Of a DNA stretch of 64,000 nucleotides, positions 7,701-27,026 are shown in pieces; within the stretch, counting starts at the first letter, position 1; each line of letters begins with the position of its first letter. Below the pieces are notes generated by a model. That model made no database searches. It was not told where the DNA came from and saw only the letters and a list, made by a program, of their open reading frames with translations. Location of the stretch: IMG/VR virus record IMGVR_UViG_3300012928_003129, positions 1 through 64,000 of that record; one strand, written 5' to 3'. This DNA is from a virus. Position numbers and translations under genes: made by a program.

Positions 7701-8852
7701 GCTAAAGATGTAGGTGTTCCCGTAGAAGATAGAGCAGACCCTGAAACCAATATTCGAGGCGCACTGACTTATATATCTAAAAATGTACCGCGTTATTTCC
7801 AAGGTGATATGAAACAATATAAAACAAAAATTCAATGGAGTGATTTGAATGAAGAACAAAAAATAAAATTTGGACTTTATGGGTTTCAGCAAGGTGTTAG
7901 AGGAGTTATCACTGGCATATCATATAGAAAGCAAAGAATGCACAAAGGTTTAGTTGCTTTTGATGATCCTGAAGAATTTCTAAGTTATATGAAAAATTGG
8001 TATATCAAAAGGTATAAATACGATTATGTAACGAAAATTTTAGACTATGCTAATCGAAATGGGGGAAGTTTTCAAGTTTCTGGCAACTCAGTACGACCCG
8101 CAAAACAGGGAAGGGCAAATACTACAGCTTCCAAAACAAAATCAGCATCAATAGAAAGTCAAATTCAACAAATGAGTCAAGCAAACAATCTAGGCAGCTT
8201 TGCTGCTGCTTACGCAGAATTGTTAGATATGTCTTTTGGTTCGTCCAGGAGAAACCTTAGCAAAATAATATCTGCAGAAAGACAACTTAACAGTTCTGAT
8301 ATTTCAAAATTTGTTAAAGATAGGACAGAATATCTAAAAACTATACATCGCAAGAAATTTAGCGCATGGAAACAAGAATATGAAAATGACATTAAAAACC
8401 CAAAAAATAAGGATGAAGCTGATAAGAAAATTGCTTTTTATCACCGGCCTGTTTTTTACGTAACTGCTTTTACTAGGTCTACTAAAAAATTCTTCTCTAA
8501 CACACCTCAAATAAGTTTTGCGTTTGAACCAACAGTTAATAGAATCGCAGTGTCCTATGCAGCACGAGAAGTTTTTTATCGTCAAGATATTATGGGAAAT
8601 CAAGTTTTTGATAGATTCTTGAAAGAACTTGGACTTTTCAAGAGAGCTATCAGTGCAACGGTGGCAAAAATTGACCCTATCATAGAAGCCAATCCAAATA
8701 GACAAGATATATTGAATGATGTAAAAAGTTATATCACTAAGCTTGATAATATAGTTAGCACTGTTTCGTCTGGCCTACAAGATACTAGCACATCAGCAAG
8801 CAGAAAGGCTTATTTAGTTTCTATTTTAAACCTCGCTATGCTAACTACTTAA
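4701..8852 (+). CDS. 1383-aa protein with SGNH hydrolase and SLT lytic transglycosylase domains
   Basis: SGNH blocks VGDSN, MGYND and DGYH; SLT motifs AESNF and GAVGLMQL. Confidence 0.8.
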   Translation: MKKVDRKFLEEQVKKALNEKEKEEQNWFMKALAASGEAHSVSVKAQAEAAYKMGPMIWEILKSLPFGSPQSYVDLIKWAQDTGTYGIGSQKYYKKIIDLLGPLQDPDARAPWGQQMIRFVNTAPITKENASQINVVFKEDLQNDFIKLRNDTAKAIYLAIQGGKDVEKGIYEILRAKTYGYDPNISAEDDFFSSWSQIRDAYVGPEDGTLADIADDYNFTKTWTDGLWGAPLKFGFINLFKDPRRFMQNGMYKEYSEEFAKLRNMSQIQEAVEKFIMMHFNGLEGANFPQAYQRLIDKAELPRIAKAKAAFETYNESGLAALIGVADILVSVPTTVVFVVSMLGGVTIPVGLAAATGKRAAFSAVRKSVLKNTTKLKNTAQNVLKAEKWGMTIKSMASLKAQSGPLIMLFGQMGWDAIKSYINDIDDEFKKFVDLCEDQSVTAEQKAEFYDNNVKPAYEYIAQQHARLFTAAQFDKEIIVSKVAKPSYIRNLYINCKLYEIQKINENITKVNAEMMQLSAAIQKMSKGLEDFDANNAKVEQAINRADAILNSDTSMKIPDLIKTPVAVPNIDKPTASDKPKKTNNFGGDEKTSDQILKNMQTSFGSNEKTSNQILSDIENALGGAIKEQEETQVISVNLGYKDALEYAKGTEGFSPETTKANIDKIKKLVQSKGKQVKFTPVAALTDVPEGVDSNKFKEFAKEINSHMQTKKVSSITKTAPAAGDKPTTDKVDATQLTKDDIIIVGDSNAAALAYWGKHKGRSKWPEDYVKHPKYATGGTRIYVDSKTKEPLEPAIGAAKTGYILQRLKMWYKDKGENYRPRMAIVHMGYNDREQAPTEGFANIQKTVNFLSSKGASDIRVVLPKGDPSHKKNADVAEWMSTLSDRLENELTGAKLIPNNGRFGKKSDGYHFVNNLKIYNDAISGVTVAGSAKSKPATKAAVTNLSSGAKKYYPLIKREAEKLGYPVSVAMGVAYAESNFRPNLVSSAGAVGLMQLMKVTAKDVGVPVEDRADPETNIRGALTYISKNVPRYFQGDMKQYKTKIQWSDLNEEQKIKFGLYGFQQGVRGVITGISYRKQRMHKGLVAFDDPEEFLSYMKNWYIKRYKYDYVTKILDYANRNGGSFQVSGNSVRPAKQGRANTTASKTKSASIESQIQQMSQANNLGSFAAAYAELLDMSFGSSRRNLSKIISAERQLNSSDISKFVKDRTEYLKTIHRKKFSAWKQEYENDIKNPKNKDEADKKIAFYHRPVFYVTAFTRSTKKFFSNTPQISFAFEPTVNRIAVSYAAREVFYRQDIMGNQVFDRFLKELGLFKRAISATVAKIDPIIEANPNRQDILNDVKSYITKLDNIVSTVSSGLQDTSTSASRKAYLVSILNLAMLTT
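6456..6545 (+). repeat. 54-bp in-frame tandem duplication (FG.xEKTSxQIL x2)
   Basis: FGGDEKTSDQIL and FGSNEKTSNQIL; DNA copies start at 6456 and 6510. Confidence 0.7.
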
Positions 8853-8875
8853 TATAATAATGGAATTATTTTAAT

Positions 8876-11800
8876 ATGCCTAATAAAAAAATTGAAAATT
8901 TATTAAACCAAAGAGATATAAAAGATTTAATAAATGAAAATATTATGTTGAGAGAATTTTCAATGTACGGCTGTGACGATCAACCCAGCAAAGTCCATGG
9001 ATACAATCCTTTTTCCAAAAAATGTATAGATATCACAAACTATCAGGGGCCCGATGCTCCCAAATCTATTCTAAGGCCAATAAAAAAGCCAGATAGAGAA
9101 GATCAAATTGCAAGTGTCACAGATAGTATTGGTGACTTCGCTGGATTTATATGGGACATTTATAAATCAGGAGTAGATTATAAAGAGATAGCAGATTGTG
9201 TATCAAATAATCCTGTTTTTTCTTTCTTGGGTTTGTTTTATGGAAGAGGAACAATAAAAATACTCCCAATGCTGGCTCAATCTTCTGGCAAGGCAATATA
9301 TTCTGCTTTCACAAAAACAGGAAAACTCCAAAATCAAATTGACACCTATGTAAGTGCTCGAAAAGGTACCTCGACAGGGTTGACAAATTTTCTTAAAAGA
9401 CTAGCAACTGGTGCGCTTTCGAGTGGTTACAAGGCAGGTAAATGGGGAACTGTTGCCGGTGTGATGGGTACGTACTTCATTTTAAACGCCGGAAGAAAAG
9501 AAAACCAAGGAGAAAATTACATGCCATGGGCCAATAAAGCATTGGACATCATGGAGAAAAATATATCTGGTGGGGATAGTAAGCAAAATTGGAAATGTTT
9601 TTTTGCAAGCGCGGTTACAGGCGTCGTCGCCGGAGTATTAATTAAAGGTGGGGCGCGAGGCCTTCTCAAGACCGCTAAAAATGTAAAATCTGGCCGTTGG
9701 AATGTTGCTGCAGACTTAATCAAATCTGCTCAAATGAGAAAATGGTTTGCCAATGCAATAAAAGACATAAAATCTGATCAATTGGTTATTTTTAAGGCCT
9801 TGCAGGAATCTGGTACGCTTCCTTCTAAAGTAAAGATTGTTGTTGACAATTCTTCTGGTCTTAATAGGTTAAAAGTTAAGGGTCTAGGCGATCAGCCGAT
9901 TAGAATACCATCTAGTGGCATGCCAGCAAGTTTGCAAAAATATGCTGTCAACGGTGAGTTGGTCTTAGATCCCAAATTATTAAAAGACGAACTGGTAACT
10001 GTTTCTGACGACATCAACAAAGCAGTACAGCAGTCATCAGGTGAAAGCTTAAGTTTACTCAGAAGTTCTAATTTTTATAAAAATGTAAAAGGCTTTAAAA
10101 AAGCAATGGAAAAATATGGAAACCTTCCAAGAGCACAGATTAGGTCTAAAGCGTTAAAAAATACTAGTGAAATTTTACAAGATTTATCTAAATCTCTAGA
10201 CTCGTCTTTACAGTCTGTTTCTCAATTACAAAAGAATGTACAAAAAGGAAAAGACCAAGTAAGAAAATTATTTGATGATATAGAGGGATTGGCAAATCAA
10301 AAGGGTTATGAAAAAATAGAGAAAGAAATTTTAGATTCTGCCACCAATATAAATGATGTTCAAAGAATAATTGATAGCGCGCTTCCGGGTATCGATAATG
10401 TTCCTACATCTTTCGTGGGCGGAGAAAGAGTCAATGTGAAAGAATTTGTTATAAACCACTTTAAAGAGACAAAAAAGTTGGATATAACAAAAAAAGGTAT
10501 CATTTCTGATATTGAGTTTGCAAGAAAGGCTATCTTAGACGATACCGGTGTTGTAAAATCGCTTTTTCCGGGCGGGAATGGTGCCGATGATTTGTCAGAC
10601 TGGCTAAGTAGTTCTGCCGGTGCGCCTTATAGAGACGTGTGGTCCAAACTTGACTCGAATGGAGATAGATTAGCAAAAATTGCAGCCACTATAGGCCCAA
10701 AAACGGCGACTGCGGTTAGATCACTATTTACTACCGCGGTGGTTCCAGTGGCGGCTTTCACACTTGGCGTTAACCTAGTATCTATGTTTTCAGCCAAAAA
10801 AATCGATGATAAAGAACAGCTAGATGAAATTGTTAGACTAATAGATGAGAAGCTAATTGAAACCAGTATTTCAAAGTACATGGATAAAGATGGAAATATT
10901 AAAGTTGAGACCCTTCTTTCAGATTTAATAAAAGCGCCTCTTGCAAACAAAGATTCTTTTATGTCTGATACAGTAAATTCACTAAAGCAGTTTAGAGATG
11001 CTCTAAAAACAAATAAAGAATATATTAAAGACATTAACAGCTTTACTAATGATGAAGAGACTTATTTAACAAAAGAATCTTTAAGAAGAAAAATAAAAGC
11101 AATTGTGAGAGGTACACTTTCCCCCAAAGGACAGAATACCGGACCTAAAAAAAATCAGACGTCGAACACGACTGGTCTTCTGTCTCAAATTCCGGAGGGG
11201 GATTTAAAGGCCAAATCACCTTTTAGCGTAAGTTTGGGTGCGCAAAATTTTCAAATTCAGTTTACTGATAAACATATCAGTATTGGAGAGAAAAAATTTC
11301 AGTTTTCTAAATTTGGTGTAGATGCTAACATAGAACAAGTAACAAAAAATAACAATAAAATAACAGCTAAACTTGTCGCAGGAATAATCGATGAGATTTT
11401 TGTATTTTCAGAATCAGACTTGCAATCACTTTTTCAGAAGGCTGTCTCTTTACAAACGGGTGAAAAAATATCAATTCAGGTTGGTGGCAAAACAGGAAAT
11501 ATTAAAAGAATTTCAGAAAATAGAGAGGTATTACAAATGAGCAAAAAAAATCTTAAACAACTGGTTTCAGAAGTTTTAAATGAAGCATACGGAAAATACC
11601 CGTACCATTCTAATGAACATACGGATGAAGAAGCAGACGAAGATTATATGGTAGAGTGGAATGCACTCGTAGATGAAGTGTGTGGAAATAAAAAGAAAAA
11701 TTTTGATGGTGACCCAAAAACTTTTGAAGACGCGGCAGTTGAAGTTGCAAAACTGTTCGTAAAAGACTCAGAACTTTTTAGAGAAGTATTAGAACTTGCT

Positions 11801-11887
11801 GGATCTAATAAATCTGTTGGTGTAGAAATAATGCAACAACTTAAAGCCGCTAAAGAAAAAAGTCTTGACAAAGAATTAAAAGTATAG
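8876..11887 (+). CDS. 1003-aa hypothetical protein with hydrophobic segments (possible virion or ejection protein)
   Basis: Long ORF behind the ACTACTTA motif; internal SD+ATG at 11537. Confidence 0.7.
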   Translation: MPNKKIENLLNQRDIKDLINENIMLREFSMYGCDDQPSKVHGYNPFSKKCIDITNYQGPDAPKSILRPIKKPDREDQIASVTDSIGDFAGFIWDIYKSGVDYKEIADCVSNNPVFSFLGLFYGRGTIKILPMLAQSSGKAIYSAFTKTGKLQNQIDTYVSARKGTSTGLTNFLKRLATGALSSGYKAGKWGTVAGVMGTYFILNAGRKENQGENYMPWANKALDIMEKNISGGDSKQNWKCFFASAVTGVVAGVLIKGGARGLLKTAKNVKSGRWNVAADLIKSAQMRKWFANAIKDIKSDQLVIFKALQESGTLPSKVKIVVDNSSGLNRLKVKGLGDQPIRIPSSGMPASLQKYAVNGELVLDPKLLKDELVTVSDDINKAVQQSSGESLSLLRSSNFYKNVKGFKKAMEKYGNLPRAQIRSKALKNTSEILQDLSKSLDSSLQSVSQLQKNVQKGKDQVRKLFDDIEGLANQKGYEKIEKEILDSATNINDVQRIIDSALPGIDNVPTSFVGGERVNVKEFVINHFKETKKLDITKKGIISDIEFARKAILDDTGVVKSLFPGGNGADDLSDWLSSSAGAPYRDVWSKLDSNGDRLAKIAATIGPKTATAVRSLFTTAVVPVAAFTLGVNLVSMFSAKKIDDKEQLDEIVRLIDEKLIETSISKYMDKDGNIKVETLLSDLIKAPLANKDSFMSDTVNSLKQFRDALKTNKEYIKDINSFTNDEETYLTKESLRRKIKAIVRGTLSPKGQNTGPKKNQTSNTTGLLSQIPEGDLKAKSPFSVSLGAQNFQIQFTDKHISIGEKKFQFSKFGVDANIEQVTKNNNKITAKLVAGIIDEIFVFSESDLQSLFQKAVSLQTGEKISIQVGGKTGNIKRISENREVLQMSKKNLKQLVSEVLNEAYGKYPYHSNEHTDEEADEDYMVEWNALVDEVCGNKKKNFDGDPKTFEDAAVEVAKLFVKDSELFREVLELAGSNKSVGVEIMQQLKAAKEKSLDKELKV

Positions 11888-11893
11888 TAAGGT
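11865..11893 (+). promoter_or_regulatory. Sigma70-like promoter
   Basis: TTGACA-17 bp-TAAGGT before ORF 11900. Confidence 0.55.
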
Positions 11894-11899
11894 ATTTTA

Positions 11900-12385
11900 A
11901 TGGAACATATAGTCAAACAAAATTGGGTTACTGGTAGTGATCACGAGATTGACTTTTATGATTTATTAAAACTAACCAGGCAATACCTTCAGAAAGGTTC
12001 CAAAATATTTATTGGAACTGACTCTTTTATATCAAAATCTACAGTATGTTTTGCTTCTGCAGTCTGTCTTCATGGTGGTCAACTTGGGGGAAGGTATTTT
12101 TTTTATAAACAAAACTTGCCCAAAAATCAATTTTCCCATTTAGTGTCCAGAATAACAGAAGAAACCAGAAGATCTGTTGAGATTGCCTGTCTCTTTATGA
12201 ACGAATATAATATAGACCCTTCTAGTATTGAACTACACCTGGATGTTAGTCCATTTGGGGCGAATAACGGCACTTCACGCTACTCTGACATGCTAAAAGG
12301 GTATGTGCAGGGGTTTGGTGTGGAATATCGCTTAAAACCGGATGCTTGGGCTTCTCAAACAATAGCGGATAAACATTCAAAATGA
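11900..12385 (+). CDS. RNase H-like YkuK/DUF458 protein
   Basis: IFIGTDS, ETRRSVE, ELHLDV, KPDAWAS..AD. Confidence 0.8.
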   Translation: MEHIVKQNWVTGSDHEIDFYDLLKLTRQYLQKGSKIFIGTDSFISKSTVCFASAVCLHGGQLGGRYFFYKQNLPKNQFSHLVSRITEETRRSVEIACLFMNEYNIDPSSIELHLDVSPFGANNGTSRYSDMLKGYVQGFGVEYRLKPDAWASQTIADKHSK

Positions 12386-12717
12386 AATCAAGAGGTAATT
12401 TAGAAAATTCAAAAAGCTTTTTTCAGGAAGTTTATTCTGTATCTAATGATGATCTTGTTGATGTGTGGATAGAGAGTTTCCATCCCTTTGGAACTGTGCT
12501 TGTTCTCTTTGATGTCGGTAAACATTTTAAAACTCTTCAAGACTGTGGAATATTATGCTCTCAATTAAACGCATATGACAACAAAATTCTTACAATAGTC
12601 TTTCCAAGCGTAAAAGATGCTCTAAAAACGATGGACACGATAAAATCATCAGGGATTTCACCAATTATATACTTATATGACAACGGAAAATTAATTTTGG
12701 ACAACATAGAGCCTTAA
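12382..12717 (+). CDS. Hypothetical protein
   Basis: ORF with ATGA overlap. Confidence 0.7.
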   Translation: MKSRGNLENSKSFFQEVYSVSNDDLVDVWIESFHPFGTVLVLFDVGKHFKTLQDCGILCSQLNAYDNKILTIVFPSVKDALKTMDTIKSSGISPIIYLYDNGKLILDNIEP

Positions 12718-12749
12718 AAACTATTTAGTTGTGGTCCGGAGACCGGGAA

Positions 12750-13145
12750 ATGATAAGAGTAAGAATAGTGCCAAATGATATAAAGACTGTTGCGAAAGTT
12801 ATTTTAATTGACGATGACGATAAAGTGCTTTTCCTGAAAAGATCAGATTACATGGAAAAATTTGCAGGAGATTGGGACCTTCCTGGTGGACATCTAAAGC
12901 AAAATGAGAGTTTGTTTGATGGACTGTCTAGAGAAGTCAAGGAGGAGACAGGATTGATTGTCAAAAATCCAAAATTAGTAGAAATACAGGCAAACTTACA
13001 CTTTTTTTGTGCAAAATACAATGCTGATCCGATTAAAATAAGCCATGAGCACACGGAGTTCAAGTTTTTTGAAAAAAACGAGCTTAATGAAAAAGAAAAG
13101 TTTCAAAAAGTAGCCCTTAAGGCCCTGGAGATGAAAAATGATTAA
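12750..13145 (+). CDS. NUDIX hydrolase
   Basis: Nudix box PGGH-x-E-x7-REVKEETG; SHEH. Confidence 0.9.
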   Translation: MIRVRIVPNDIKTVAKVILIDDDDKVLFLKRSDYMEKFAGDWDLPGGHLKQNESLFDGLSREVKEETGLIVKNPKLVEIQANLHFFCAKYNADPIKISHEHTEFKFFEKNELNEKEKFQKVALKALEMKND

Positions 13146-13941
13146 ATTTTCTATCAAAAAGCAAGATTTCGATTTTAATACTGGTTTATTAAAGCCGAAA
13201 GACACACTTTACCCTAAAATATGGAAAAATAACAAAATCGATCCAATTGTAGCAAGAAAATTAATGAAAATCGCAGACGATGTTATCAGATCACTAGAAA
13301 TAGAAGAACATGTTGATGATATCATAATTACAGGCTCGATTGCTTCCTATAATTGGCATGAAATGTCAGATATTGACCTTCACATTATGTTGGACTTCGA
13401 TAAGATTGATAAAAACTTTGATTTGGTTAAAAAAATGCTAGATCAAACAAGAATTAACTGGAACAAGAAACATAATATTTTTATTCACGGAAAAGAGGTC
13501 GAATTATACTTTCAACACTATACAGAAACCCATGAAGCTAACGGTATATGGTCTCTAGAGATAGGGAAATGGTTGGCAAACCCAGTAAGACTTGATCCTG
13601 AAATAGATATTGTAACCACAGAGAAAAAAGCAGAAGCAATAGCGATGCAGATAGAGCACTTGTTTGATATGTTTCACCAGCAAAAATTTAAAGAAACATA
13701 TGAGTATGCAGATAAAGTAAAAGTCAAAATTGCAAGAATGAGACAGTTAGGATTATCGGATCAAGGTATTTATTCTCCAGAAAACCTTGCGTTTAAGATG
13801 TTGAGAAACGCCGGATACTTAGAAAAACTTTCTGCACTCAAAATTGAAGCGTATGACCGCATGATGTCTCTTAGCCTCAAGTCGAAGTCGATAGATGAAA
13901 ACAAGGTGTGGAGAAACTATTTAAATCAGGGGGATAAGTGA
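13138..13941 (+). CDS. Pol-beta superfamily nucleotidyltransferase
   Basis: hG[S]-x-DxD motif IITGSIASYNW..SDIDLH; third acidic residue in EVELY. Confidence 0.8.
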   Translation: MIKFSIKKQDFDFNTGLLKPKDTLYPKIWKNNKIDPIVARKLMKIADDVIRSLEIEEHVDDIIITGSIASYNWHEMSDIDLHIMLDFDKIDKNFDLVKKMLDQTRINWNKKHNIFIHGKEVELYFQHYTETHEANGIWSLEIGKWLANPVRLDPEIDIVTTEKKAEAIAMQIEHLFDMFHQQKFKETYEYADKVKVKIARMRQLGLSDQGIYSPENLAFKMLRNAGYLEKLSALKIEAYDRMMSLSLKSKSIDENKVWRNYLNQGDK

Positions 13942-14211
13942 ATGGCTTCTCAAAGACGTGGAAAATATGTATTCAGAGTAACAAAAGTTAAAAAATATCT
14001 TCGTACTCTTTATTCAAATTCTGAAGATGTGATGGCAGAAATTAAAGACTATTTTCGAAACCAACAAGATGAAGATTATTTAGCTTTTGATGATCATCCA
14101 CTTTCTGATATAGAATCGTTAATGGATCCTGATAAGCCCGCACCGTGGGATCATCTTACAAACAATGAAGATGACGAAGATGTAGATATTGACATAAAGG
14201 AAGAAGAATGA
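13942..14211 (+). CDS. Hypothetical acidic protein
   Basis: ORF behind the motif at 13916. Confidence 0.65.
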   Translation: MASQRRGKYVFRVTKVKKYLRTLYSNSEDVMAEIKDYFRNQQDEDYLAFDDHPLSDIESLMDPDKPAPWDHLTNNEDDEDVDIDIKEEE

Positions 14212-14390
14212 ATTTTTTAGATTGGATGAATATGAACATGATATTGGACATAGCTTTTCTTGTTTTTTCTGTAGCGATAGTTTGGAAATTCAGGAATTTG
14301 GAGAAAAAACTTTTGAAAACCCAAAAAGACTTAGAACTTACAATGAAAAACCCGCTAGCAGCTAAAAGATCGTTAAAAGTGAGAAGATAA
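14208..14390 (+). CDS. Small single-TM protein
   Basis: Hydrophobic segment followed by a basic coiled coil. Confidence 0.6.
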   Translation: MNFLDWMNMNMILDIAFLVFSVAIVWKFRNLEKKLLKTQKDLELTMKNPLAAKRSLKVRR

Positions 14391-14429
14391 TCTGGTACCC
14401 TTACAGTGTAATCACTGAAAGGATACAAA

Positions 14430-15437
14430 ATGATTGCTGATGTTGTAGTGGACTTACAGTATGGAGACTGTGGCAAGGGGAAAATTGCGCATGCACTCTG
14501 CAAGGAAAATAAGTATACACATGTAATTAGATATAATGGCGGATGTAATGCAGGTCACACCATTTATCATAATGGGAAAAAATTTGTTACACACCACATA
14601 CCATGTGGTGTTTTTTTTGGTATTAAATCAATTATTGGCCCGGGCTGTGTTGTTCACGTAGAAACTTTCTTAAAAGAAATTGAAGAACTGGAAGAAGCTG
14701 GAATCCCTGCAAAGAAGCTAGTTCACGTTGCTACAAACGCACATCTAATAACCGACTTTCACAGGGCCCAGGATGGCAAAGACGAAGAAATCGGCACAAC
14801 AAAAAGAGGTAATGGACCAGCATACAGAGATAAATATGATAGAAAAGGCGTCCGCGCAATGCATGACCCCAGGCTACAACCATATATTATTAGCATGTAT
14901 CACGAACTTTACGAAAACGAGGATTATAATGAAATTGAAATACTTTTTGAAGGGGCCCAAGGATTTGGCCTCGATATTGATTGGGGTGACTATCCTTATG
15001 TTACTTCTTCGCATTGTACTGTTGGCTCTGCACTGTTAAATGGCGTTCCTCCAAAGTGTATTAGAAACATTTGGGGAGTTGCTAAAATATATGAAACTTA
15101 TGTTGGCGCAAAGTCTTTTGAAGGTCCCGATGAAATTTTTGATACAATTAGAGATATTGGCCAAGAATACGGTGCCACAACCGGGCGACCACGCCAAATT
15201 AACTGGTTAGACTATGAAATGTTGAAAATGGCAACCAGAATCAATGGATGCACCAAAGTCGTATTTAACAAAATGGATGTGTTGGAAGGATTAGATGCTT
15301 GGTGCTTATATGATGGGCCCAATCTATATCAATTTGAAACCAGATCAGACATTGAGCTTTGGCTTTCTGGAAAGTTAGAATTAGAAGTCGATGATAATAT
15401 AGATGTTATGTTTTCTGGAGATAAAGAATTTATTTAA
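14430..15437 (+). CDS. purA: Adenylosuccinate synthetase (short form)
   Basis: QYGDCGKG, GGCNAGHT, EGAQG, YPYVTSS, TTGRPR, NKMDVL. Confidence 0.92.
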   Translation: MIADVVVDLQYGDCGKGKIAHALCKENKYTHVIRYNGGCNAGHTIYHNGKKFVTHHIPCGVFFGIKSIIGPGCVVHVETFLKEIEELEEAGIPAKKLVHVATNAHLITDFHRAQDGKDEEIGTTKRGNGPAYRDKYDRKGVRAMHDPRLQPYIISMYHELYENEDYNEIEILFEGAQGFGLDIDWGDYPYVTSSHCTVGSALLNGVPPKCIRNIWGVAKIYETYVGAKSFEGPDEIFDTIRDIGQEYGATTGRPRQINWLDYEMLKMATRINGCTKVVFNKMDVLEGLDAWCLYDGPNLYQFETRSDIELWLSGKLELEVDDNIDVMFSGDKEFI

Positions 15438-15451
15438 TTACTATTTAATAT

Positions 15452-15649
15452 ATGAGCATCAAAAGCGAAAATATATCCAATGATTATATTATAGATCATG
15501 CAGAGCAGATGCATGAAGAATATGATGGAAATGTGCCTGATGATGCAAAAACAATTCCTTTTCGTTTCATGGTGCAGGGTCCCTTCAATATAAGATTGCA
15601 GCCTTTACAAAATCATTACAAAACTTTTCTCGGAGAACAAAAAACCTAA
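15452..15649 (+). CDS. Hypothetical protein (apparently leaderless)
   Basis: ATG 12 nt after the start of ACTATTTA. Confidence 0.55.
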   Translation: MSIKSENISNDYIIDHAEQMHEEYDGNVPDDAKTIPFRFMVQGPFNIRLQPLQNHYKTFLGEQKT

Positions 15650-15680
15650 AACTATTTACATTTAGAGGTTTTTGTATAAG

Positions 15681-16997
15681 ATGATTGATAAATTAAAACC
15701 ATTATTGGGCAAATTATGTTCCTTTTCCCAGAAAAGACTAGGCTTTTCTCATCCTCCAAAACTTTTTTTAAAAAGCGATTCAGAGAATGCTGAAAAAACA
15801 TTGGGAAAAACAGCACATTATGATCCGAATAATTCCTCAATCACTCTTTTCACTACTGGAAGACACCCGAAAGATATTCTAAGATCTTTTTCGCACGAAC
15901 TAGTTCATCATGCACAAAATCTCAGGGGTGACCTAGCGCCGGAAAAAATGACCAGTACTGGTGCTAATTATGCCCAAGAATGTCCACACATGAGAAATAT
16001 GGAAAAAGAGGCCTATTTAAAGGGTAACATGTGTTTTCGTGACTGGGAAGATCAATATAAACTAACAGAATCGGAGTCAAAATTTTTAAAGGAGAATAAA
16101 ACAATGACCACAAAGATAACAAAGGACTTTTTAAAAGAACAGATAAAAAGTGCCATAAAAGAATTTGAATTAAGAGGGCAAGGAAAATATAGTGATTACA
16201 TGTCTAGCCTAGGCTCGGACTCTATCAAGTATCAAGGCACTGGTACACAAACCCCACCAGCGAAAAAGCCGGTTGCCAAAAAAAAGCCAGATCTTAGCAA
16301 CACTGTGATATCTCATTTACAGGATTTTAAAACTCACGTACACAAAAAATATGGAGTTATGCCAGACTTTTCAGACAGTGGTGGATTTAAATCTGCTTTT
16401 GCAGATGCTAAAGCATTGAAAGTGCCTTTCTTTTACTTTGGACCTGGTAAGTATAAAATTTATGCAACCGGTCTAGGAAAGGACCCACTCAGTCTAGATG
16501 ATCTTAAAGCTAAATATCAAGAATACGGCGATGAAGCTATGGCTCAGATTGAGCCTGAGATTGATAATTTAGCTGCTACATTGAACCCGAAAAAAGAGAA
16601 GCCCGTCGTCGGCTCGCCCTTAGAGGAGACTGATGAAATAGAAGAAGGTGGTTGTGGCAAAGGTGGTTTAGGTAGACGAACAGATGATAAAGTTAAAGAA
16701 ACTAAAGGCATTGAAGAAAAGAAAAAATGCCCGGGTAAAAGCTGCCCGGGCTGCCCGGAGTGTAAGCCAGGGCTAAAAAATGAACAAGAAGAGTTAGAAG
16801 AAAAGAAGACCAAGAAAAAGAAAAAGAAAAAAGGTAAATACGACGATGGCGATGGCAAAGATGAAAAGTGCGATTATGTTCCATGTAAAGAGTCTGTGAT
16901 TCAAACGCCGGAGCAGGAAAATACTCTTTATGAGCAAAGATTTACTCCAAAGAACAATAGACTATTTGAAAAACTTCTCCAAGAATGGACAAAGTAA
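15681..16997 (+). CDS. Zincin (HExxH) domain plus low-complexity Cys/Lys-rich module
   Basis: HELVHHAQ..MEKEAY; CPGKSCPGCPEC; internal SD+ATG at 16104. Confidence 0.7.
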   Translation: MIDKLKPLLGKLCSFSQKRLGFSHPPKLFLKSDSENAEKTLGKTAHYDPNNSSITLFTTGRHPKDILRSFSHELVHHAQNLRGDLAPEKMTSTGANYAQECPHMRNMEKEAYLKGNMCFRDWEDQYKLTESESKFLKENKTMTTKITKDFLKEQIKSAIKEFELRGQGKYSDYMSSLGSDSIKYQGTGTQTPPAKKPVAKKKPDLSNTVISHLQDFKTHVHKKYGVMPDFSDSGGFKSAFADAKALKVPFFYFGPGKYKIYATGLGKDPLSLDDLKAKYQEYGDEAMAQIEPEIDNLAATLNPKKEKPVVGSPLEETDEIEEGGCGKGGLGRRTDDKVKETKGIEEKKKCPGKSCPGCPECKPGLKNEQEELEEKKTKKKKKKKGKYDDGDGKDEKCDYVPCKESVIQTPEQENTLYEQRFTPKNNRLFEKLLQEWTK

Positions 16998-17011
16998 TAT
17001 AGGGTAAAGAC

Positions 17012-20000
17012 ATGGATAATAAATTGCTCTTAGAAGGTGGCGTCGGTGGACACATGAACCACCCTTATGACATAGATGATCTCACTTTTGGAGATCTAAA
17101 AGATATGCTAAGGGCTGCAGCAAATGGTGAACTGCAAGGATCCGAAAAGACTGACGGTCAAAATTTATATATAACTTTTGACGTAGAATCCCAAAAAGCA
17201 AAAGCAATTAGAAATCAAACCCAAATCAAAGCAGGTGGGCTGACACCCGAACAACTGGATGATTTCTTCTCCAGCCACCCAGCGCAAGCCCTAAGATACA
17301 GTTTTGTAGAGGCTTTATCAACTTTTGAGAATTTTGCTATAGAGCTGACGAGAGAGACACAGCTAGAAATCTTTGGACCTGATGGGGCGATTTATTTTAA
17401 CACCGAAATAATGAACCCTGGGACTCCTGGTTTTGATAAAGATGATCCTAGAGGCATGGGTACCAAGAACGTTATACCGTATGATAAAAAAACTATCCTT
17501 GTACACCCTTCTGGGCATAAAGAGTTCGAGAGAGAAACTGCAAAAGATTTAGAAACTAACCTCATTTCAAATTATAGAACACTTAAATCAGCATTAGAAG
17601 GTAAACAAGTAGAGGATCCGGGGATTTTTTCAATAGAGACGCATCCTCTTAGAAAATTACATCCAAAAGGGCTAGAAAAAGCAAATAACTTACTTCCTAG
17701 AACAATTTCACAAATTGACAATATTGTAAAAGATGCTAGCGCTACTGATGATACTCCTATTGTTAGATACGTTATAGATCAAGTCAAAGCTGATATAAAT
17801 ACTGCAACACCGGGCCTAAGTGAGGAGAGACTCGAAGACTTAGCTACAAAATTTCTAAAGTTATGTAAAAGAACGGATGGCGAACCCGGGTATCTGAGAT
17901 GTGGCGACAAGAAGAATAAAAAATTTATAAAACCAAACGAAAATATAAGAAACTTGATCGCTGGTCTGTCCGGAGATGAACTACAAGGAATAAAGTCTTT
18001 TGCATCATCATTTTCAGAAGGAAGATACCGACGACCTTTAGCCATGGCCCTTGCAGATTTTACTAATGCAATTCTTGATGGGTTTGACTCTTCTTTTATT
18101 TCTGATAATGAAAAACAATTAAATTCACTAAAGGGTGAACTTAGCAAAGTTGTGAAGCAAATTGCTAAATCAGACAATGAGGCTGCAAAAGATGGACTTA
18201 GAATCGAATTGGAGAAGTTGAAAAATATAGATAATATCAATACTCCTTCTGAGGGTTTTGTCTTTGACTTCAAAGGGGAAGAGTTTAAGTTCACAGGCGC
18301 TTTTTCGCCAATGAATCAAATATTGGGCATGCCTAAGTTTAAAAGATATGGAGAAATAGCCCCTATGGAGACAATAGCGGTCTTTCCTGGCTCTTTTAAG
18401 CCTCCACATAGGGGACACTTAGAAGTTGTTAAAGCAATCTCTCAAAACGCCGATAAGACACTCGTGATTGTATCTAGGCCAACACAAAATCAGAGAACTC
18501 TTCCTTTATCTGGAAAAATTATTGGATCCACAGAAGCCATAAACCTTATGAGAGCAATGCTTGAGGGTACTGGTCTCGAAGATAAAGTTGAAGTGTTGTC
18601 AGGGGCAGATGCTTCTCCGATGATGACTACGATAAAATACGTCACCTTTCCAGCGGATGAAGAAAATCCTCTTGTAGCCCCAGAAAATGCTGAGATTATT
18701 CTTGGTGTTGGAGAAAAAGGTGATGATGCTAAACGTTATTCTGGTCTCCCGGAAAAGGTTAGAGAAAAAAGGCCCGATTTGGATCTTGAGACTACTCCAA
18801 CCCCTGCAGTTTCTCATGATAAACAATATCTTTCTTTGCTTCAAAGTGAACAGTATTCAGATATTTTAGAGAAAATGCCAAGTAAAAGCTCAGGTGCTGG
18901 TATACAACTTTTTCATGCATCTGATATGAGATTTCTTATGGATTTGGCTGCACAGGATCTTAGAGCAGTAAACCTTCTTGCTGATTTTGTTGGAGGTATA
19001 GAAAAGGTGCCAAGTGTTTTAGATGCAGTTGGCATTGTTCCAGCGACACAGTCCAGCCCAGAAGAAGACCAAGTTGAAGAGCCGGAACTTGAAGGCCCAC
19101 CAGAGGATGAAGTCAATGCAGATGATCTTGCGGAGATTGTCTATGAAGAAACCATGAAAGTTTTCGAAGCATTCAAATCACAAAAAGCGCCGAAAGCTAG
19201 ACCTTCGAAGGGTAAGTTTCAGCGAAGAATGCGCAAAAGGCTTTCTAAGGCTCATAGAACCTATTTAGATATGGGCAGAAAAGATTTAACAAAACACGGT
19301 GGTGGTTTTAGGAAAAATAGAAAAAAAGATATTTCAAATGCTTTTTTGGCTGAGGATGAAATAGAGGAATTAAGTTCTGTTGCTTCCGGAGCAATACAAA
19401 TGGCCCCAGCAGTAAAGCGAGATTATAATGCTACAAGGAATGATAAAAAAATGAACAAAAAAGAACAAATACTTCGAAAGAAGATAAGAATCAGTCTTCA
19501 AGAATTCTTTAACACAAAATCAAAAGAGCATGAAACTACAGTTGCTAAAATACTTGAAGAGCACGAACTTAGGATGCAGTTGAGAGAGATCATTTTAGAA
19601 CAAACTCTTAATGAAGCAGAAGATCCCACAACTGATGTTCATGATAATACTGGCATTAACACTTTAAAAGATTTAATGAAAAACACAAACGTATTAGCAA
19701 CCTTAAGAACAGTTTATAAGACTTTAACAACTGATGAAAATCAAAAGAAATCTTTTAGAGCACACATTATAAAGTGGACTCAAGATACATTAGCGCCAGT
19801 CAAACTGAATGACACTGACGCTGAAGCTGTGAATGAACAGGTTGGTGTTGATATAGAAGGTGTAAATGATGATATGTTCATTGATGCTAGCGACGGCTCA
19901 GAAAAAGATAACCCTGATGTCCCTGAAGAAGAAAATGAAAAGATGCAAGCAATTTCCGGAGAAGATACCACTGGGCGAAATAAGGCCGAAAGAGTTTATC

Positions 20001-20236
20001 CTTCAATAGAAAAATCAATAATTGACTACTACGCAGAATTGGACAATCCAGAAGATCAAGAAATGTTTTATGACTATTTGATTGCTAACTTAAAATTGTA
20101 TTTTGATAAATGGGACGGCGAGATGTCAAAGGCGGTCGATGAGCCAACAAATAGCGTCTACAAGCAAGCGGCTATGACCGCGGCAAATGCCCAAGGTCCA
20201 GATCCAATCAGCGGTGATGAGCCTGTTGAGCTTTAA
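17012..20236 (+). CDS. Fusion of ATP-dependent RNA-ligase-like domain, HIGH nucleotidyltransferase and acidic C-terminal module
   Basis: EKTDG (motif I), FNTEIM, EGFV..FK; FPGSFKPPHRGH and HASDMR. Confidence 0.7.
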   Translation: MDNKLLLEGGVGGHMNHPYDIDDLTFGDLKDMLRAAANGELQGSEKTDGQNLYITFDVESQKAKAIRNQTQIKAGGLTPEQLDDFFSSHPAQALRYSFVEALSTFENFAIELTRETQLEIFGPDGAIYFNTEIMNPGTPGFDKDDPRGMGTKNVIPYDKKTILVHPSGHKEFERETAKDLETNLISNYRTLKSALEGKQVEDPGIFSIETHPLRKLHPKGLEKANNLLPRTISQIDNIVKDASATDDTPIVRYVIDQVKADINTATPGLSEERLEDLATKFLKLCKRTDGEPGYLRCGDKKNKKFIKPNENIRNLIAGLSGDELQGIKSFASSFSEGRYRRPLAMALADFTNAILDGFDSSFISDNEKQLNSLKGELSKVVKQIAKSDNEAAKDGLRIELEKLKNIDNINTPSEGFVFDFKGEEFKFTGAFSPMNQILGMPKFKRYGEIAPMETIAVFPGSFKPPHRGHLEVVKAISQNADKTLVIVSRPTQNQRTLPLSGKIIGSTEAINLMRAMLEGTGLEDKVEVLSGADASPMMTTIKYVTFPADEENPLVAPENAEIILGVGEKGDDAKRYSGLPEKVREKRPDLDLETTPTPAVSHDKQYLSLLQSEQYSDILEKMPSKSSGAGIQLFHASDMRFLMDLAAQDLRAVNLLADFVGGIEKVPSVLDAVGIVPATQSSPEEDQVEEPELEGPPEDEVNADDLAEIVYEETMKVFEAFKSQKAPKARPSKGKFQRRMRKRLSKAHRTYLDMGRKDLTKHGGGFRKNRKKDISNAFLAEDEIEELSSVASGAIQMAPAVKRDYNATRNDKKMNKKEQILRKKIRISLQEFFNTKSKEHETTVAKILEEHELRMQLREIILEQTLNEAEDPTTDVHDNTGINTLKDLMKNTNVLATLRTVYKTLTTDENQKKSFRAHIIKWTQDTLAPVKLNDTDAEAVNEQVGVDIEGVNDDMFIDASDGSEKDNPDVPEEENEKMQAISGEDTTGRNKAERVYPSIEKSIIDYYAELDNPEDQEMFYDYLIANLKLYFDKWDGEMSKAVDEPTNSVYKQAAMTAANAQGPDPISGDEPVEL

Positions 20237-20280
20237 TAAAATACTTGAATATTCTTTAACCGTATGTTACCCTGGGTAGG

Positions 20281-20682
20281 ATGGTTGGCAAAACAGCGAT
20301 AAAAGATAATTCTTTAAAAGAAACTAAATTCTTTTCAGATAATAAAAACTATAATTTAAAAAATAAATTATTAAAAGAAAAGAAAATAGATATTAAATTT
20401 TTAGAACAATTATCTTTCATAACTTTAGAAGAATTAATTACATTAAAATTATTAGTTAGTACTGAAGGACTTAAAGGAAAATTATATAATTTTCCTTTTT
20501 TCAAGTATACTTCTGATATATGTAAAGAAGCTGTTGTGCGATTTGCTCTATCAAAAGCCTCAAATAGAAAAGAAGTTTCTTTAATACTTGGAACAAAAAA
20601 AGCTGATATAGTAAAATATATTAGAGAGTATAATTTACTGGAGGATTACAATTATGATAGTAGAACAAAAAAGAGTAAATAA
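20281..20682 (+). CDS. Putative Fis-like HTH protein
   Basis: C-terminal EAVVRFAL..NRKEVSLILG..KYIREYNL resembles HTH_8. Confidence 0.5.
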   Translation: MVGKTAIKDNSLKETKFFSDNKNYNLKNKLLKEKKIDIKFLEQLSFITLEELITLKLLVSTEGLKGKLYNFPFFKYTSDICKEAVVRFALSKASNRKEVSLILGTKKADIVKYIREYNLLEDYNYDSRTKKSK

Positions 20683-21010
20683 ACCATGGGGCTATGAAAT
20701 TATCTGGTCTCAATGTGAAAAGTTTGTGGGAAAAATTTTAACAATAAACTCAGGCCATAAACTTTCTAGGCAATATCACAAACAAAAAGAAGAAACTATA
20801 TTCGTTTTAACTGGAACTTTATTGCTGGAAGTTGGTATGGGTGAAAAGTTAGAAAAAATAGAACTTAGAAATGGTCAGTCTTTTCACGTCACACCCGGAA
20901 CAGTACATCGATTCTGCGCACCATATGGAGATGTAGAATTGGCAGAAGTCAGTACACCAGAATTAGATGATGTTGTTAGACTTGAAGACGATTATAACAG
21001 AGGCAACTAA
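20654..21010 (+). CDS. Cupin (mannose-6-phosphate isomerase type II C-terminal-like)
   Basis: KPWGYE, LSRQYH..KEE, PGTVHR, DVVRLEDDY. Confidence 0.85.
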   Translation: MIVEQKRVNKPWGYEIIWSQCEKFVGKILTINSGHKLSRQYHKQKEETIFVLTGTLLLEVGMGEKLEKIELRNGQSFHVTPGTVHRFCAPYGDVELAEVSTPELDDVVRLEDDYNRGN

Positions 21011-21036: not shown

Positions 21037-21441
21037 ATGAAACTTATAATGGAAAATTGGAAAAGGTTCATAAAAGAAGTCAAAGTCCCACAAGGTAAGG
21101 ACAGAGAATATTATATAGAAGACCCAAACTTATCTCTAACTGTAGAAACCAGCGATGGAAAGCAACATGTAATCAAAGCCTTAGAGATAGAAACAGGATG
21201 GTATGGAGACACCTCTCAGGGAGCCTTCAAATATTCGATAAATAACGAAGAATACACTTGGGAACTCACTTCAGGATGGTATCCTGACGGTGCGGCCTGG
21301 AGAATACTAGAACATCTGGGAGAGGACGGTTCTGAAAATAATTCTGATGAACCAACTGAAATAGAAGAGACCATAGAAAGATTTATAGAATCTCAAGTAA
21401 AAAGAAACCCCAATTACGAATTTGATGATGAATGGTACTAG
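21037..21441 (+). CDS. Hypothetical protein with MKLIMENW leader
   Basis: Motif at 21006 and SD GGAGG. Confidence 0.75.
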   Translation: MKLIMENWKRFIKEVKVPQGKDREYYIEDPNLSLTVETSDGKQHVIKALEIETGWYGDTSQGAFKYSINNEEYTWELTSGWYPDGAAWRILEHLGEDGSENNSDEPTEIEETIERFIESQVKRNPNYEFDDEWY

Positions 21442-24267: not shown

Positions 24268-24837
24268 ATGGACAAGAAAACATTAATACAAATTATCAAA
24301 GAAGAAGTTGAAAAGCTGCTCTCTGAGAAGAAAAAAGAAAAGAAACATGCCATGTATAATCCTAAAACAGGTAAGAAGGAAATGGCAGATGGTGAAAAGC
24401 ATAAGAAATTAGCAAAGAAAGGCTATGTTCACTTTGATCCAAAAAAGGTCATAGCGGCCACTGATAAGGAAGGCGGCGCCGCCGGCCTTGACGCAATAGT
24501 AAAACACACCAATGCTGATAAAGAAGAATTAAAAAAAAATATCACAAAAGTAAAAGGTATAGTAAAACATACTAAAGGTGATTATATCACAACAAGTACT
24601 GGCCGAAAAGTTGCTGAAGAAATAATAAAACAAGAAATTGAAGCCGTTCTTGATGAGAAACGAAAAAAACGTAAAAAGAAAAAAAAGAAAAAGAAATCTT
24701 CCGGGAAAAAAGATGCCTGCTACTACAAAGTAAAAAGCAGATATAAAATATGGCCCTCAGCTTATGCGTCCGGTGCATTAGTGCGTTGTCGCAAGGTCGG
24801 AGCAAAAAACTGGGGCAACAAGAGCAAAAAGAAATGA
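24268..24837 (+). CDS. Basic late protein with IIKEE leader
   Basis: MDKKTLIQIIKEE; poly-Lys; KDACYYKVK..WPSAYASGALVRCRK. Confidence 0.75.
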   Translation: MDKKTLIQIIKEEVEKLLSEKKKEKKHAMYNPKTGKKEMADGEKHKKLAKKGYVHFDPKKVIAATDKEGGAAGLDAIVKHTNADKEELKKNITKVKGIVKHTKGDYITTSTGRKVAEEIIKQEIEAVLDEKRKKRKKKKKKKKSSGKKDACYYKVKSRYKIWPSAYASGALVRCRKVGAKNWGNKSKKK

Positions 24838-25319
24838 AAAAACAAGAACTTATTGACATTATAAAAGAAGAGATTGAGATTATCTTATTGGAAAGGTGTC
24901 AAAAAGGTTACAAAACTCATCCAAAAAGAAAAACCAAAAAAATGTATGGAAAGACATACAGAAATTGTATAAAAGCTGAAGAAGCAAATGAGGAACCAGA
25001 TACAGACGAGGTTTTAGGCGAAAAGAAAAGTAAACGAGATGGAAAAGGATCCCGTAGCAAAGGTTATTCTCTTAGAGATTGGTTTAAAGGTGGTGGATGG
25101 GTCCAGACAGGTGGAAAGTACGACGGAAAACCTTGTGCAAAACAACCTGGACAAAAATCAAAACCATATTGCAGAGACCCTGATGATAGAGCTAAATTAA
25201 GCAAATCAGAGAGAGAAAAAAGAGTTAAAAAGAAAAGAAGAGAGGATGGAGATTCAAATAGACGTGGTCCCGCTAAGAACGTAAGTCAAAAACGTAAAAA
25301 AAGGAAGAGTAAAAAATAA
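24834..25319 (+). CDS. Basic late protein with IIKEE leader
   Basis: Start reassigned to the ATGA overlap (MKKQELIDIIKEE); SLRDWF..GWV..KPC. Confidence 0.75.
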   Translation: MKKQELIDIIKEEIEIILLERCQKGYKTHPKRKTKKMYGKTYRNCIKAEEANEEPDTDEVLGEKKSKRDGKGSRSKGYSLRDWFKGGGWVQTGGKYDGKPCAKQPGQKSKPYCRDPDDRAKLSKSEREKRVKKKRREDGDSNRRGPAKNVSQKRKKRKSKK

Positions 25320-26848: not shown

Positions 26849-27025
26849 ATGATTACTGAAAAATTAAAAGAAATTTTAGAAGAACTAGCAACAGCAGAAG
26901 AGGACGCAGAAAAGTGTGAACAAGGTAACGCTTCTGCGGGCCGCCGGGTTCGCAAGGCTTCGATGAACGCAATTAAGGAACTAAAAGAACTTAGAGCAGC
27001 GGTTCTTGAGCACATTAAGGGGTAG
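26849..27025 (+). CDS. Hc1/histone H1-like small nucleoid protein (58 aa)
   Basis: Not in the ORF track. SD AAGGAG; EEDAEK..GNASAGRRVRKASM..KELR. Confidence 0.8.
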   Translation: MITEKLKEILEELATAEEDAEKCEQGNASAGRRVRKASMNAIKELKELRAAVLEHIKG

Positions 27026-27026
27026 C

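What the first reader, a model, noticed from the sequence alone, without database searches (positions are those of the whole stretch)
11525..19460. Three long ORFs hide an in-frame SD+ATG exactly at the start of an internal leader module
Seen: GAGGT-7nt-ATG at 11537 (MSKKNLKQLVSEVLNE), AAGGAG-9nt-ATG at 16104 (MTTKITKDFLKEQIKSAIKE) and AAGGA-11nt-ATG at 19451 (MNKKEQILRKKIRISLQE). All are in frame with their host ORFs. Inference: each gene makes a long cargo-bearing form and a short C-terminal form, or these are recent fusions in which cargo was captured by stop-codon loss upstream of a packaged protein. Either would be a mechanism for recruiting enzymes into the virion.
Basis: partly seen in the sequence, partly recalled or inferred. 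Interest (0 to 1): 0.7.

Follow-up and report, generated by a model that had tools for sequence, protein, structure and literature searches.

The report
Conserved internal start sites in three phage genes
Three long genes of an uncultured marine T4-like phage each carry a conserved ribosome-binding site and start codon inside the reading frame, so each probably makes a full-length protein and a separate short C-terminal protein; whether this loads proteins into the virion is untested.

Summary
GAGGT-7-ATG (11537), AAGGAG-9-ATG (16104) and AAGGA-11-ATG (19451) exist and are in frame with ORFs 8876-11887, 15681-16997 and 17012-20236.

Inside the window alone this is weak evidence: 16 of 334 internal in-frame ATGs have an SD of at least 5 nt.

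Relatives make the case. Each C-terminal module is a stand-alone gene in some relatives, starting at that same Met.
- 8876 family: 59 of 60 fused relatives keep ATG and 58 keep an SD, in all three codon registers, behind variable upstream residues.
- 15681 family: 72 of 77 keep AAGGAG, read as K-E in some clades and K-G-x in others. One relative uses GTG.
- 17012 family: the module is a separate, ATGA-overlapped gene in 44 of 79 relatives. It is fused in 31, of which 30 keep ATG or TTG.
- Other internal ATGs in the same genes carry a 5-nt SD in only 4-7%.

Best reading: nested in-frame genes giving long and short isoforms, as with lambda C/Nu3 and T7 4A/4B.

Recruitment into the virion remains unproven. 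Support is circumstantial: complete relatives encode a T4 gp21-type protease, and the leaders contain L/I-x-E. No short product has been observed.

The parts
8876..11887 (+). Long ORF P1 (1003 aa). The N part has coiled-coil-like and hydrophobic stretches and no Pfam domain; the conserved C-terminal module is P1C.
   Evidence: In the exhaustive search the module sits at the C-terminal end of nearly all listed proteins, whose lengths range from 59 to 1757 aa; most are over 400 aa.
11525..11539 (+). Internal SD GAGGT (11525-11529), 7-nt spacer, ATG 11537.
   Evidence: Among 60 fused relatives, 59 keep ATG, 58 have an SD of at least 4 nt and 46 of at least 5 nt. The SD lies in all three codon registers behind 53 distinct upstream hexapeptides.
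11537..11887 (+). Predicted short product P1C (116 aa).
   Evidence: Stand-alone ORFs of 98-119 aa exist in relatives (L085, L144, L162-L165; P0153, P0219, P0222, P0229, P0247).
15681..16997 (+). Long ORF P2 (438 aa from ATG 15681; ORF opens at TTG 15672). The N domain, 15681-16103, is a minimal HExxH zincin fold.
   Evidence: Model pLDDT 91.2. Best fold matches are Wss1 (Z 8.0), PprI/IrrE, SPRTN and ArdC. Peptidase_M91 E = 0.003, below the family cut-off.
16089..16106 (+). Internal SD AAGGAG (16089-16094), 9-nt spacer, ATG 16104.
   Evidence: AAGGAG(G) is present in 72 of 77 unique fused relatives, in registers 39/34/3. It is read as L-K-E, Q-K-G-x, Q-K-E-S or N-E-R-R in different clades. L100 has GTG after AAGGAG.
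16104..16997 (+). Predicted short product P2C (297 aa): leader helix, a variable charged and Cys-containing region, and a conserved C-terminal tail.
   Evidence: Alignment. In L044 and L045 the tail is a separate small ORF that starts at the junction, with a stop/start overlap (ATGA in L045).
17012..20236 (+). Long ORF P3 (1074 aa): a ligase-like KxDG...EGxV...K domain, then an HxGH nucleotidyltransferase (about 18368-18499), a linker and the C module P3C.
   Evidence: (CTP_transf_like 2.9e-05), and the invariant columns. The ligase assignment rests on motifs plus a single weak Pfam hit.
19435..19453 (+). Internal SD AAGGA (19435-19439), 11-nt spacer, ATG 19451.
   Evidence: In 31 fused relatives the junction codon is ATG in 27, TTG in 3 and GAA in 1; the SD is at least 4 nt in 29 and at least 5 nt in 15.
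19451..20236 (+). Predicted short product P3C (261 aa), helical, beginning with a helix of about 55-65 residues.
   Evidence: 1893 homologues of 143-457 aa. Stand-alone proteins start at the same Met. It is a separate gene in 44 of 79 junctions, 37 of them with an ATGA overlap. Model.

Best explanation
The three ORFs are nested in-frame genes. Ribosomes start at the 5' start codon and also at a conserved internal SD plus start codon. Each mRNA therefore gives a full-length protein (an N-terminal part joined to the C module) and a free C-terminal module identical to the end of the long form. The C modules are autonomous units. In some relatives they are separate genes starting at the same Met, and the P1 module is attached to at least 14 unrelated N-terminal parts.

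Shown here:
- The sites exist and are in frame.
- Their SD and start codon are conserved at the nucleotide level, across codon registers and in variable protein contexts.
- Both split and fused forms occur in nature.

Inferred:
- Both products are made.
- The short form co-assembles with the long form through the shared module and so sets the dose of the N-terminal part. P2's N part is a zincin-like domain; P3's is a ligase-like plus nucleotidyltransferase enzyme.

Inferred with less confidence (about 0.3-0.35): the assembly in question is the T4-type prohead core. On this reading the amphipathic L/I-x-E leaders act like capsid targeting sequences and are trimmed by a gp21-type protease.
For: Sites and frame.

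P1 family: 60 of 69 unique junctions are fused. Of these, 59 keep ATG, 58 have an SD of at least 4 nt and 46 of at least 5 nt. The SD lies in registers 32/10/16 behind 53 distinct upstream hexapeptides. C-module identity ranges from about 35 to 85%.

P2 family: AAGGAG is present in 72 of 77 unique relatives, in two main registers. The residue after Gly varies (D, E, A, V, G) but its codon always begins with G. L100 has GTG after AAGGAG. In this genome K-E is coded AAGGAG in only 5 of 112 cases, and AAGGAG occurs 0.24 times per kb of coding sequence.

P3 family: 30 of 31 fused forms keep ATG or TTG, and 29 have an SD of at least 4 nt.

Background: other internal in-frame ATGs of the same gene families have an SD of at least 5 nt in 3.6-7.1% and of at least 4 nt in 14-19%. 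The chance SD+ATG at 9521 is not conserved.

Stand-alone forms.

Modular N parts: at least 14 unrelated clusters; the module is C-terminal in nearly all of 141 representative clusters.

Initiation regions are unstructured, with MFE of -3.6 to -5.6 kcal/mol over 80 nt.

For the virion reading:
- All four near-complete relatives (96-100% by CheckV) encode Peptidase_S77, at 102-109 bits.
- T4 gp21 cuts after L/I-X-E, and 10-residue N-terminal targeting sequences load unrelated proteins into the head (PMC9026906).
- A hydrophobic-x-E-Q type motif occurs near the N-terminus of 14% of P1-family long forms against 1% of other ORFs.
- P1 lies beside a 1383-aa SLT-containing protein and a PG-binding protein. 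One search shows both start with K/E-rich amphipathic stretches; I did not score these against the leader profiles.
Against: - No protein or ribosome data exist; the phage is uncultured, with no match in cultured phages for P3C.
- In the window alone, SD+ATG is not rare (16 of 334).
- The P3 SD is weak (4-5 nt), lies mostly in one register, and overlaps partly conserved K-R-N/D-D residues.
- Two distant independent P3 fusions (L014, L016) have no SD, and L014 has no start codon. One P1 relative (L003) lacks the ATG.
- The sequences are related, so the counts are not independent events.
- For the virion reading: no module matches any known virion, scaffold or internal protein by sequence or fold.
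- The genes lie among metabolic-type genes (purA, NUDIX), not in a head module.
- L/I-x-E is frequent in any K/E/L-rich helix (32% of ORF N-termini).
- This contig holds no gp21 homologue; it is 42% complete.
Confidence: 0.72

Rival explanations
1. Internal starts give two products, but the purpose is cytoplasmic rather than virion loading. The C module would be a partner or regulatory subunit of the enzyme encoded upstream. Fusion plus an internal start would then keep a surplus of free partner, as with other two-isoform enzymes such as T7 gp4A/4B.
For: In 37 of 44 split relatives the P3 module is translationally coupled by an ATGA overlap to the ligase-like/nucleotidyltransferase gene. That arrangement is typical of subunits of one complex. 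The gene order zincin - ligase-like - nucleotidyltransferase - P3C is conserved in most of the 80 loci. In Flavobacterium phage immuto the zincin domain lies inside a 908-aa protein annotated as NMN adenylyltransferase, which links these domains functionally. Neighbouring genes are metabolic (purA, NUDIX). No virion homology was found.
Against: This does not explain why the P1 module is attached to at least 14 unrelated large N-terminal parts. It also does not explain why P1 lies beside cell-wall-degrading proteins that one search shows with similar-looking N-termini. The T4-type protease is present in relatives.
Confidence: 0.35
2. The internal SD+ATG sites are inert relics of gene fusion: former gene starts that have not yet decayed. 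Only the long proteins would matter.
For: All three modules are separate genes in some relatives. The P3 fusion is confined mainly to one clade. Distant P3 fusions L014 and L016, and P1 relative L003, have lost the SD and/or the start codon.
Against: In P1 and P2 the fused state spans relatives with only 35-50% identity, and the residues just upstream have diverged beyond alignment. Yet 58 of 60 P1 relatives keep an SD, and 72 of 77 P2 relatives keep the AAGGAG hexamer (74 of 77 an SD of at least 5 nt), in different codon registers. Other internal ATGs show this in 4-19%. ATG is replaced only by TTG or GTG, never by non-start codons, except in three cases.
Confidence: 0.1
3. The SD-like sequences are translational pause or domain-boundary signals, and the Met is kept for structural reasons. 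There would be no internal initiation.
For: The sites lie exactly at domain boundaries, between a folded N domain and a long helix.
Against: A pause signal would not need a start codon 7-11 nt downstream. It would not explain Met being replaced only by TTG or GTG. It would not explain stand-alone genes starting at the same residue with the same SD.
Confidence: 0.04
4. The long ORFs are assembly or sequencing artefacts that join neighbouring genes.
For: The window comes from a metagenome assembly.
Against: The same fused frames recur in dozens of independent assemblies from different samples and projects.
Confidence: 0.01

Closest known systems
Nested protease/scaffold genes of tailed phages and herpesviruses (lambda C/Nu3; by my own knowledge also Mu I/Z and HSV UL26/UL26.5)
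   Same: An in-frame internal start yields a short protein identical to the C-terminus of a longer, enzyme-bearing protein. The shared C-terminal part lets both enter one assembly. In lambda, C and Nu3 interact and Nu3 self-associates (PMC3224144); the nested arrangement itself is from my own knowledge.
   Different: There is no sequence or fold similarity. P2's N domain is a zincin-like metalloprotease fold, not a serine prohead protease. The genes are not in a head module. No scaffold role is shown. The modules are also free-standing genes in relatives.
T4 capsid targeting sequences on internal proteins (IPI-III, Alt), removed by gp21 after L/I-X-E
   Same: Short amphipathic leaders containing L/I-x-E sit on unrelated proteins of a phage lineage that encodes a gp21-type protease. 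The variable cargo is reminiscent of the diverse T-even internal proteins (PMC3012670).
   Different: The T4 sequence is 10 residues long and strictly N-terminal. Here the leader is internal in the long form and N-terminal only in the predicted short form. Neither targeting nor cleavage has been tested. Sequence similarity among the leaders is weak.
Two-isoform phage genes made by internal initiation (T7 gene 4A/4B and T4 genes 17 and 49 from my own knowledge; the second start in T4 gene 21 is mentioned in PMC9026906)
   Same: An in-frame internal SD and start codon give an N-terminally truncated isoform from the same mRNA.
   Different: Those are single, experimentally shown cases in model phages. 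Here there are three unrelated gene families within a 12-kb stretch, known only from sequence, with both split and fused states visible across relatives.

Membership tests
Nested in-frame gene with internal translation start | A start codon inside, and in frame with, a longer ORF | tested here: met
   the offsets of 2661, 432 and 2439 nt are multiples of 3.
Nested in-frame gene with internal translation start | A ribosome-binding site at functional spacing, kept by selection | tested here: met
   The SD lies 7-11 nt upstream. It is conserved in 58/60 (P1), 74/77 at 5 nt or more (P2) and 29/31 (P3) fused relatives, against 4-19% at other internal ATGs. For P1 and P2 it is conserved across codon registers.
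Nested in-frame gene with internal translation start | Both the long and the short polypeptide are actually made | not testable with these tools
   The phage is uncultured, and no proteomic or ribosome data were available.
T4-type capsid targeting sequence | The phage encodes a gp21-type (Peptidase_S77) prohead protease | tested here: inconclusive
   Present in 4 of 4 near-complete relatives (96-100% by CheckV) at 102-109 bits. Absent from this 42%-complete contig.
T4-type capsid targeting sequence | A short N-terminal leader ending in L/I-X-E | tested here: inconclusive
   All three leaders contain L/I-x-E within 20 residues. However, 32% of all ORF N-termini in the loci do too.
T4-type capsid targeting sequence | The leader is necessary and sufficient for packaging and is removed in the head | not testable with these tools
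   This needs virions of a cultured relative.
lambda C/Nu3-type protease-scaffold pair | N-terminal prohead serine protease domain | tested here: not met
   The P2 N domain is an HExxH zincin fold. P1 and P3 have no protease domain.
lambda C/Nu3-type protease-scaffold pair | Location between the portal and major capsid genes | tested here: not met
   The neighbours are purA, NUDIX and small unknown genes. In relative G001 the protease lies about 90 kb away from this locus.

The most novel reading that the evidence does not exclude
A natural cargo-loading system of uncultured marine T4-like phages. A leader-bearing C-terminal module is made both free and, from the same mRNA, as the tail of a long protein. 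Interchangeable N-terminal cargoes would thereby be carried into the prohead, trimmed by the gp21-type protease and injected with the DNA. The cargoes would include at least 14 unrelated types on the P1 module, a zincin-like protease, and a ligase-like plus nucleotidyltransferase enzyme.
Probability: 0.3. Interest if true: 0.8.

Novelty: new variant of a known kind. Interest (0 to 1): 0.55.

Why it matters
Internal initiation is known from a few model-phage genes and is routinely missed by annotation. Here comparative data alone give strong evidence for it in three unrelated gene families of an abundant, uncultured marine phage lineage; the third module alone has 1893 homologues. The SD signal is visible independently of the encoded residues, which offers a general way to find hidden nested genes in metagenomes. 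If the modules prove to be virion-loading units, this lineage would show how T4-like phages exchange injected cargo. It would also offer a natural design for packaging foreign proteins in capsids.

Tried and rejected
- Cultured relatives: megablast of 8000-21000 and tblastn of P3C against the phage collection found nothing. Only the P2 zincin domain hit Flavobacterium phage immuto.
- The single-sequence scan of IMG/VR with P1C found nothing; alignment-based scans worked.
- No known family for the modules or for the N part of P1. Pfam, PHROGs and NCBIfam gave nothing credible for P1C, P2C, P3C or P1N. PDB profile searches were empty or noise. The P3C model (pLDDT 64.7) had no fold match apart from one unnamed viral protein. 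The ESM Atlas gave only unnamed viral clusters at 0.80.
- The ligase assignment for the first P3 domain rests on invariant KxDG, EGxV and K columns plus one weak Pfam hit in 1 of 10 members. Treat it as a lead.
- Internal promoter: no copy of the ACTANTTA motif lies near the internal starts; the nearest is at 10723.
- RNA folding around the sites is unremarkable, with z-scores of 0.24, 0.57 and -1.04.
- Literature searches for the MENWRK-type leader strings and for nested phage genes gave nothing relevant.
- The other strong SD+ATG in P1, at 9521, was rejected as chance.
Full report
**What the window is.** The window is the first 64 kb of a 76,181-bp IMG/VR virus record judged 42% complete. 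It has 37% G+C, nearly all genes on the + strand, and a gp6-like baseplate wedge gene. No cultured phage matches the region by DNA, or the third C module (P3C) by protein. Related contigs of 175-195 kb judged 96-100% complete all encode a T4 gp21-type prohead protease (Peptidase_S77, 102-109 bits). The lineage is therefore an uncultured marine T4-like myovirus group. Many gene starts have an SD: 39 of 60 have at least 4 nt. An SD is therefore meaningful in this phage.

**The observation.** All three sites are as described and are in frame with ORFs 8876-11887 (P1, 1003 aa), 15672/15681-16997 (P2) and 17012-20236 (P3, 1074 aa). Within the window alone this is not remarkable. Of 334 internal in-frame ATGs, 16 have an SD of at least 5 nt at 3-12 nt spacing. 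One of them, at 9521 in P1, is not conserved in the closest relative.

**P3 (17012-20236).** The C module from 19451 has 1893 homologues of 143-457 aa. Full-length stand-alone proteins of about 245-290 aa begin within a residue or two of the same Met. A scan of IMG/VR found 345 related loci, of which 80 were kept. Gene order is conserved: zincin gene, ligase-like domain, nucleotidyltransferase domain, then the module. Over 79 unique junctions the module is a separate gene in 44, and 37 of those show a 4-nt ATGA overlap with the upstream gene. It is fused in 31. The fused state covers the window's clade (65-83% identity) plus a few distant cases. Fused forms keep ATG (27) or TTG (3) at the junction, and 29 of 31 have an SD of at least 4 nt. 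Distant fusions L014 and L016 lack the SD, and L014 also lacks a start codon. Here the fusion is derived. It required a change of frame, because the ancestral genes overlap out of frame.

**P2 (15681-16997).** The N domain (141 aa, HExxH) is conserved in nearly all related loci and is almost always fused to a variable, charged C part with a conserved tail. At the junction, 77 of 87 unique relatives have a Met, and 72 of those have AAGGAG(G) upstream. The hexamer sits in different codon registers in different clades, read as L-K-E-N, Q-K-G-x, Q-K-E-S or N-E-R-R. In the Q-K-G-x clade the next residue varies (D, E, A, V, G), but its codon always starts with G. The one fused relative without a Met (L100) has AAGGAG, 9 nt, then GTG. 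In this genome K-E is written AAGGAG in only 5 of 112 cases, and the hexamer occurs 0.24 times per kb of coding sequence. Split forms exist. In L044 and L045 the zincin domain ends at the junction, and a small ORF carrying the tail motif starts there behind an SD, overlapping the upstream stop (ATGA in L045). In L016 the domain stands alone. The domain models with pLDDT 91.2. It matches only small zincins: Wss1 (Z 8.0, rmsd 2.9 over 99 residues), PprI/IrrE, SPRTN, ArdC and the minigluzincins. Pfam Peptidase_M91 scores below its cut-off.

**P1 (8876-11887).** A scan of metagenome contigs gave 80 loci. Of 69 unique junctions, 60 are fused to ORFs of about 300-1490 aa. Of these, 59 keep ATG, 58 have an SD of at least 4 nt and 46 of at least 5 nt. 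The SD lies in all three registers (32/10/16) behind 53 different upstream hexapeptides. Seven junctions are stand-alone ORFs of about 100 aa, two of them with TTG starts. An exhaustive search of 1.84 billion representatives found 141 clusters. The module sits at the extreme C-terminus in nearly all. Most of these proteins exceed 400 aa, and five are stand-alone at 104-119 aa. The N parts fall into at least 14 clusters with no detectable similarity to one another.

**Background rates.** In the same gene families, other internal in-frame ATGs have an SD of at least 5 nt in 3.6-7.1% and of at least 4 nt in 14-19%. The sequences are related, so these counts are not independent events. Even so, conservation across registers, and behind residues too diverged to align, points to selection on the nucleotides themselves.

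**Interpretation.** The simplest reading is internal translation initiation: each mRNA gives a long protein and a free C module. This is a known kind of arrangement. Examples are lambda C/Nu3 (plus my own knowledge of the nesting), the second start in T4 gene 21, and T7 4A/4B (my own knowledge).

**What the short forms are for is not shown.** Points for virion loading:
- The gp21-type protease is present in relatives.
- T4 gp21 cleaves after L/I-X-E, and 10-residue targeting sequences load diverse proteins.
- All three leaders contain L/I-x-E.
- A stricter hydrophobic-x-E-Q motif is enriched at the N-termini of P1-family long forms, 14% against 1%.
- P1 lies beside an SLT-containing 1383-aa protein and a PG-binding protein. 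One search shows both start with similar-looking K/E-rich stretches; these were not scored.

Points against virion loading:
- No module matches any known virion protein.
- The surrounding genes are metabolic in type.
- L/I-x-E is common anyway, at 32% of ORF N-termini.
- P3C looks like a translationally coupled partner of the upstream enzyme.

**The 'leader module' as one family.** Support is weak. Profiles of each leader find the other leaders, or the N-termini of ORFs 24268 and 24834, as best non-self hits in a six-frame scan, but at only 5-7 bits.

**Limits.** The ligase label for the first P3 domain rests on motifs.

Noticed in passing
window 24268-24837 and 24834-25319: Two basic, Lys-rich proteins lie in tandem with an ATGA stop/start overlap. 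Their N-termini are the best non-self matches to the P1C leader profile in a six-frame scan of the whole window (7.3 and 5.3 bits).
   Followed up: partly
L087-L166 (metagenome loci) and P0134-P0271: The P1C module sits at the C-terminus of proteins up to 1757 aa, most over 400 aa. Their N parts fall into at least 14 unrelated clusters. Many long forms begin with M-x(1-6)-hydrophobic-hydrophobic-x-E-Q, reminiscent of T4 propeptides.
   Followed up: partly
L082 (Flavobacterium phage vB_FspM_immuto_3-5A, 5276-7999): The only cultured-phage match to the P2 zincin domain lies inside a 908-aa protein annotated as NMN adenylyltransferase. This fusion links the zincin domain with the nucleotidyltransferase that is its neighbour in the window's lineage.
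   Followed up: no
L167-L170 (relatives G001-G004): All four near-complete relatives (175-195 kb) encode a T4 gp21-type Peptidase_S77 prohead protease. The window also has a separate ClpP-like gene (27006-27665) that PHROGs labels a head maturation protease.
   Followed up: partly
window, 24 sites, e.g. 8844, 15651, 23382, 24256: ACTANTTA occurs 24 times against 13.6 expected (none of 100 shuffles reached 24). Most copies lie just upstream of + strand gene starts, including P1 and P2. None lies near the three internal starts.
   Followed up: partly
window 21037-21441 and 1992-2495; L008, L019, L066: A second recurrent N-terminal type (M-K-L-I/L-M-E-N-W-R/K-x-F/Y-L) heads many otherwise unrelated small proteins in the window and in relatives. 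The literature search found no description of it.
   Followed up: partly
window 9507-9523: AAGGAG, 8 nt, then ATG lies in frame inside P1. It is not conserved in the closest relative (GCA codon, no SD), so it is probably a chance site and serves as a negative control.
   Followed up: yes
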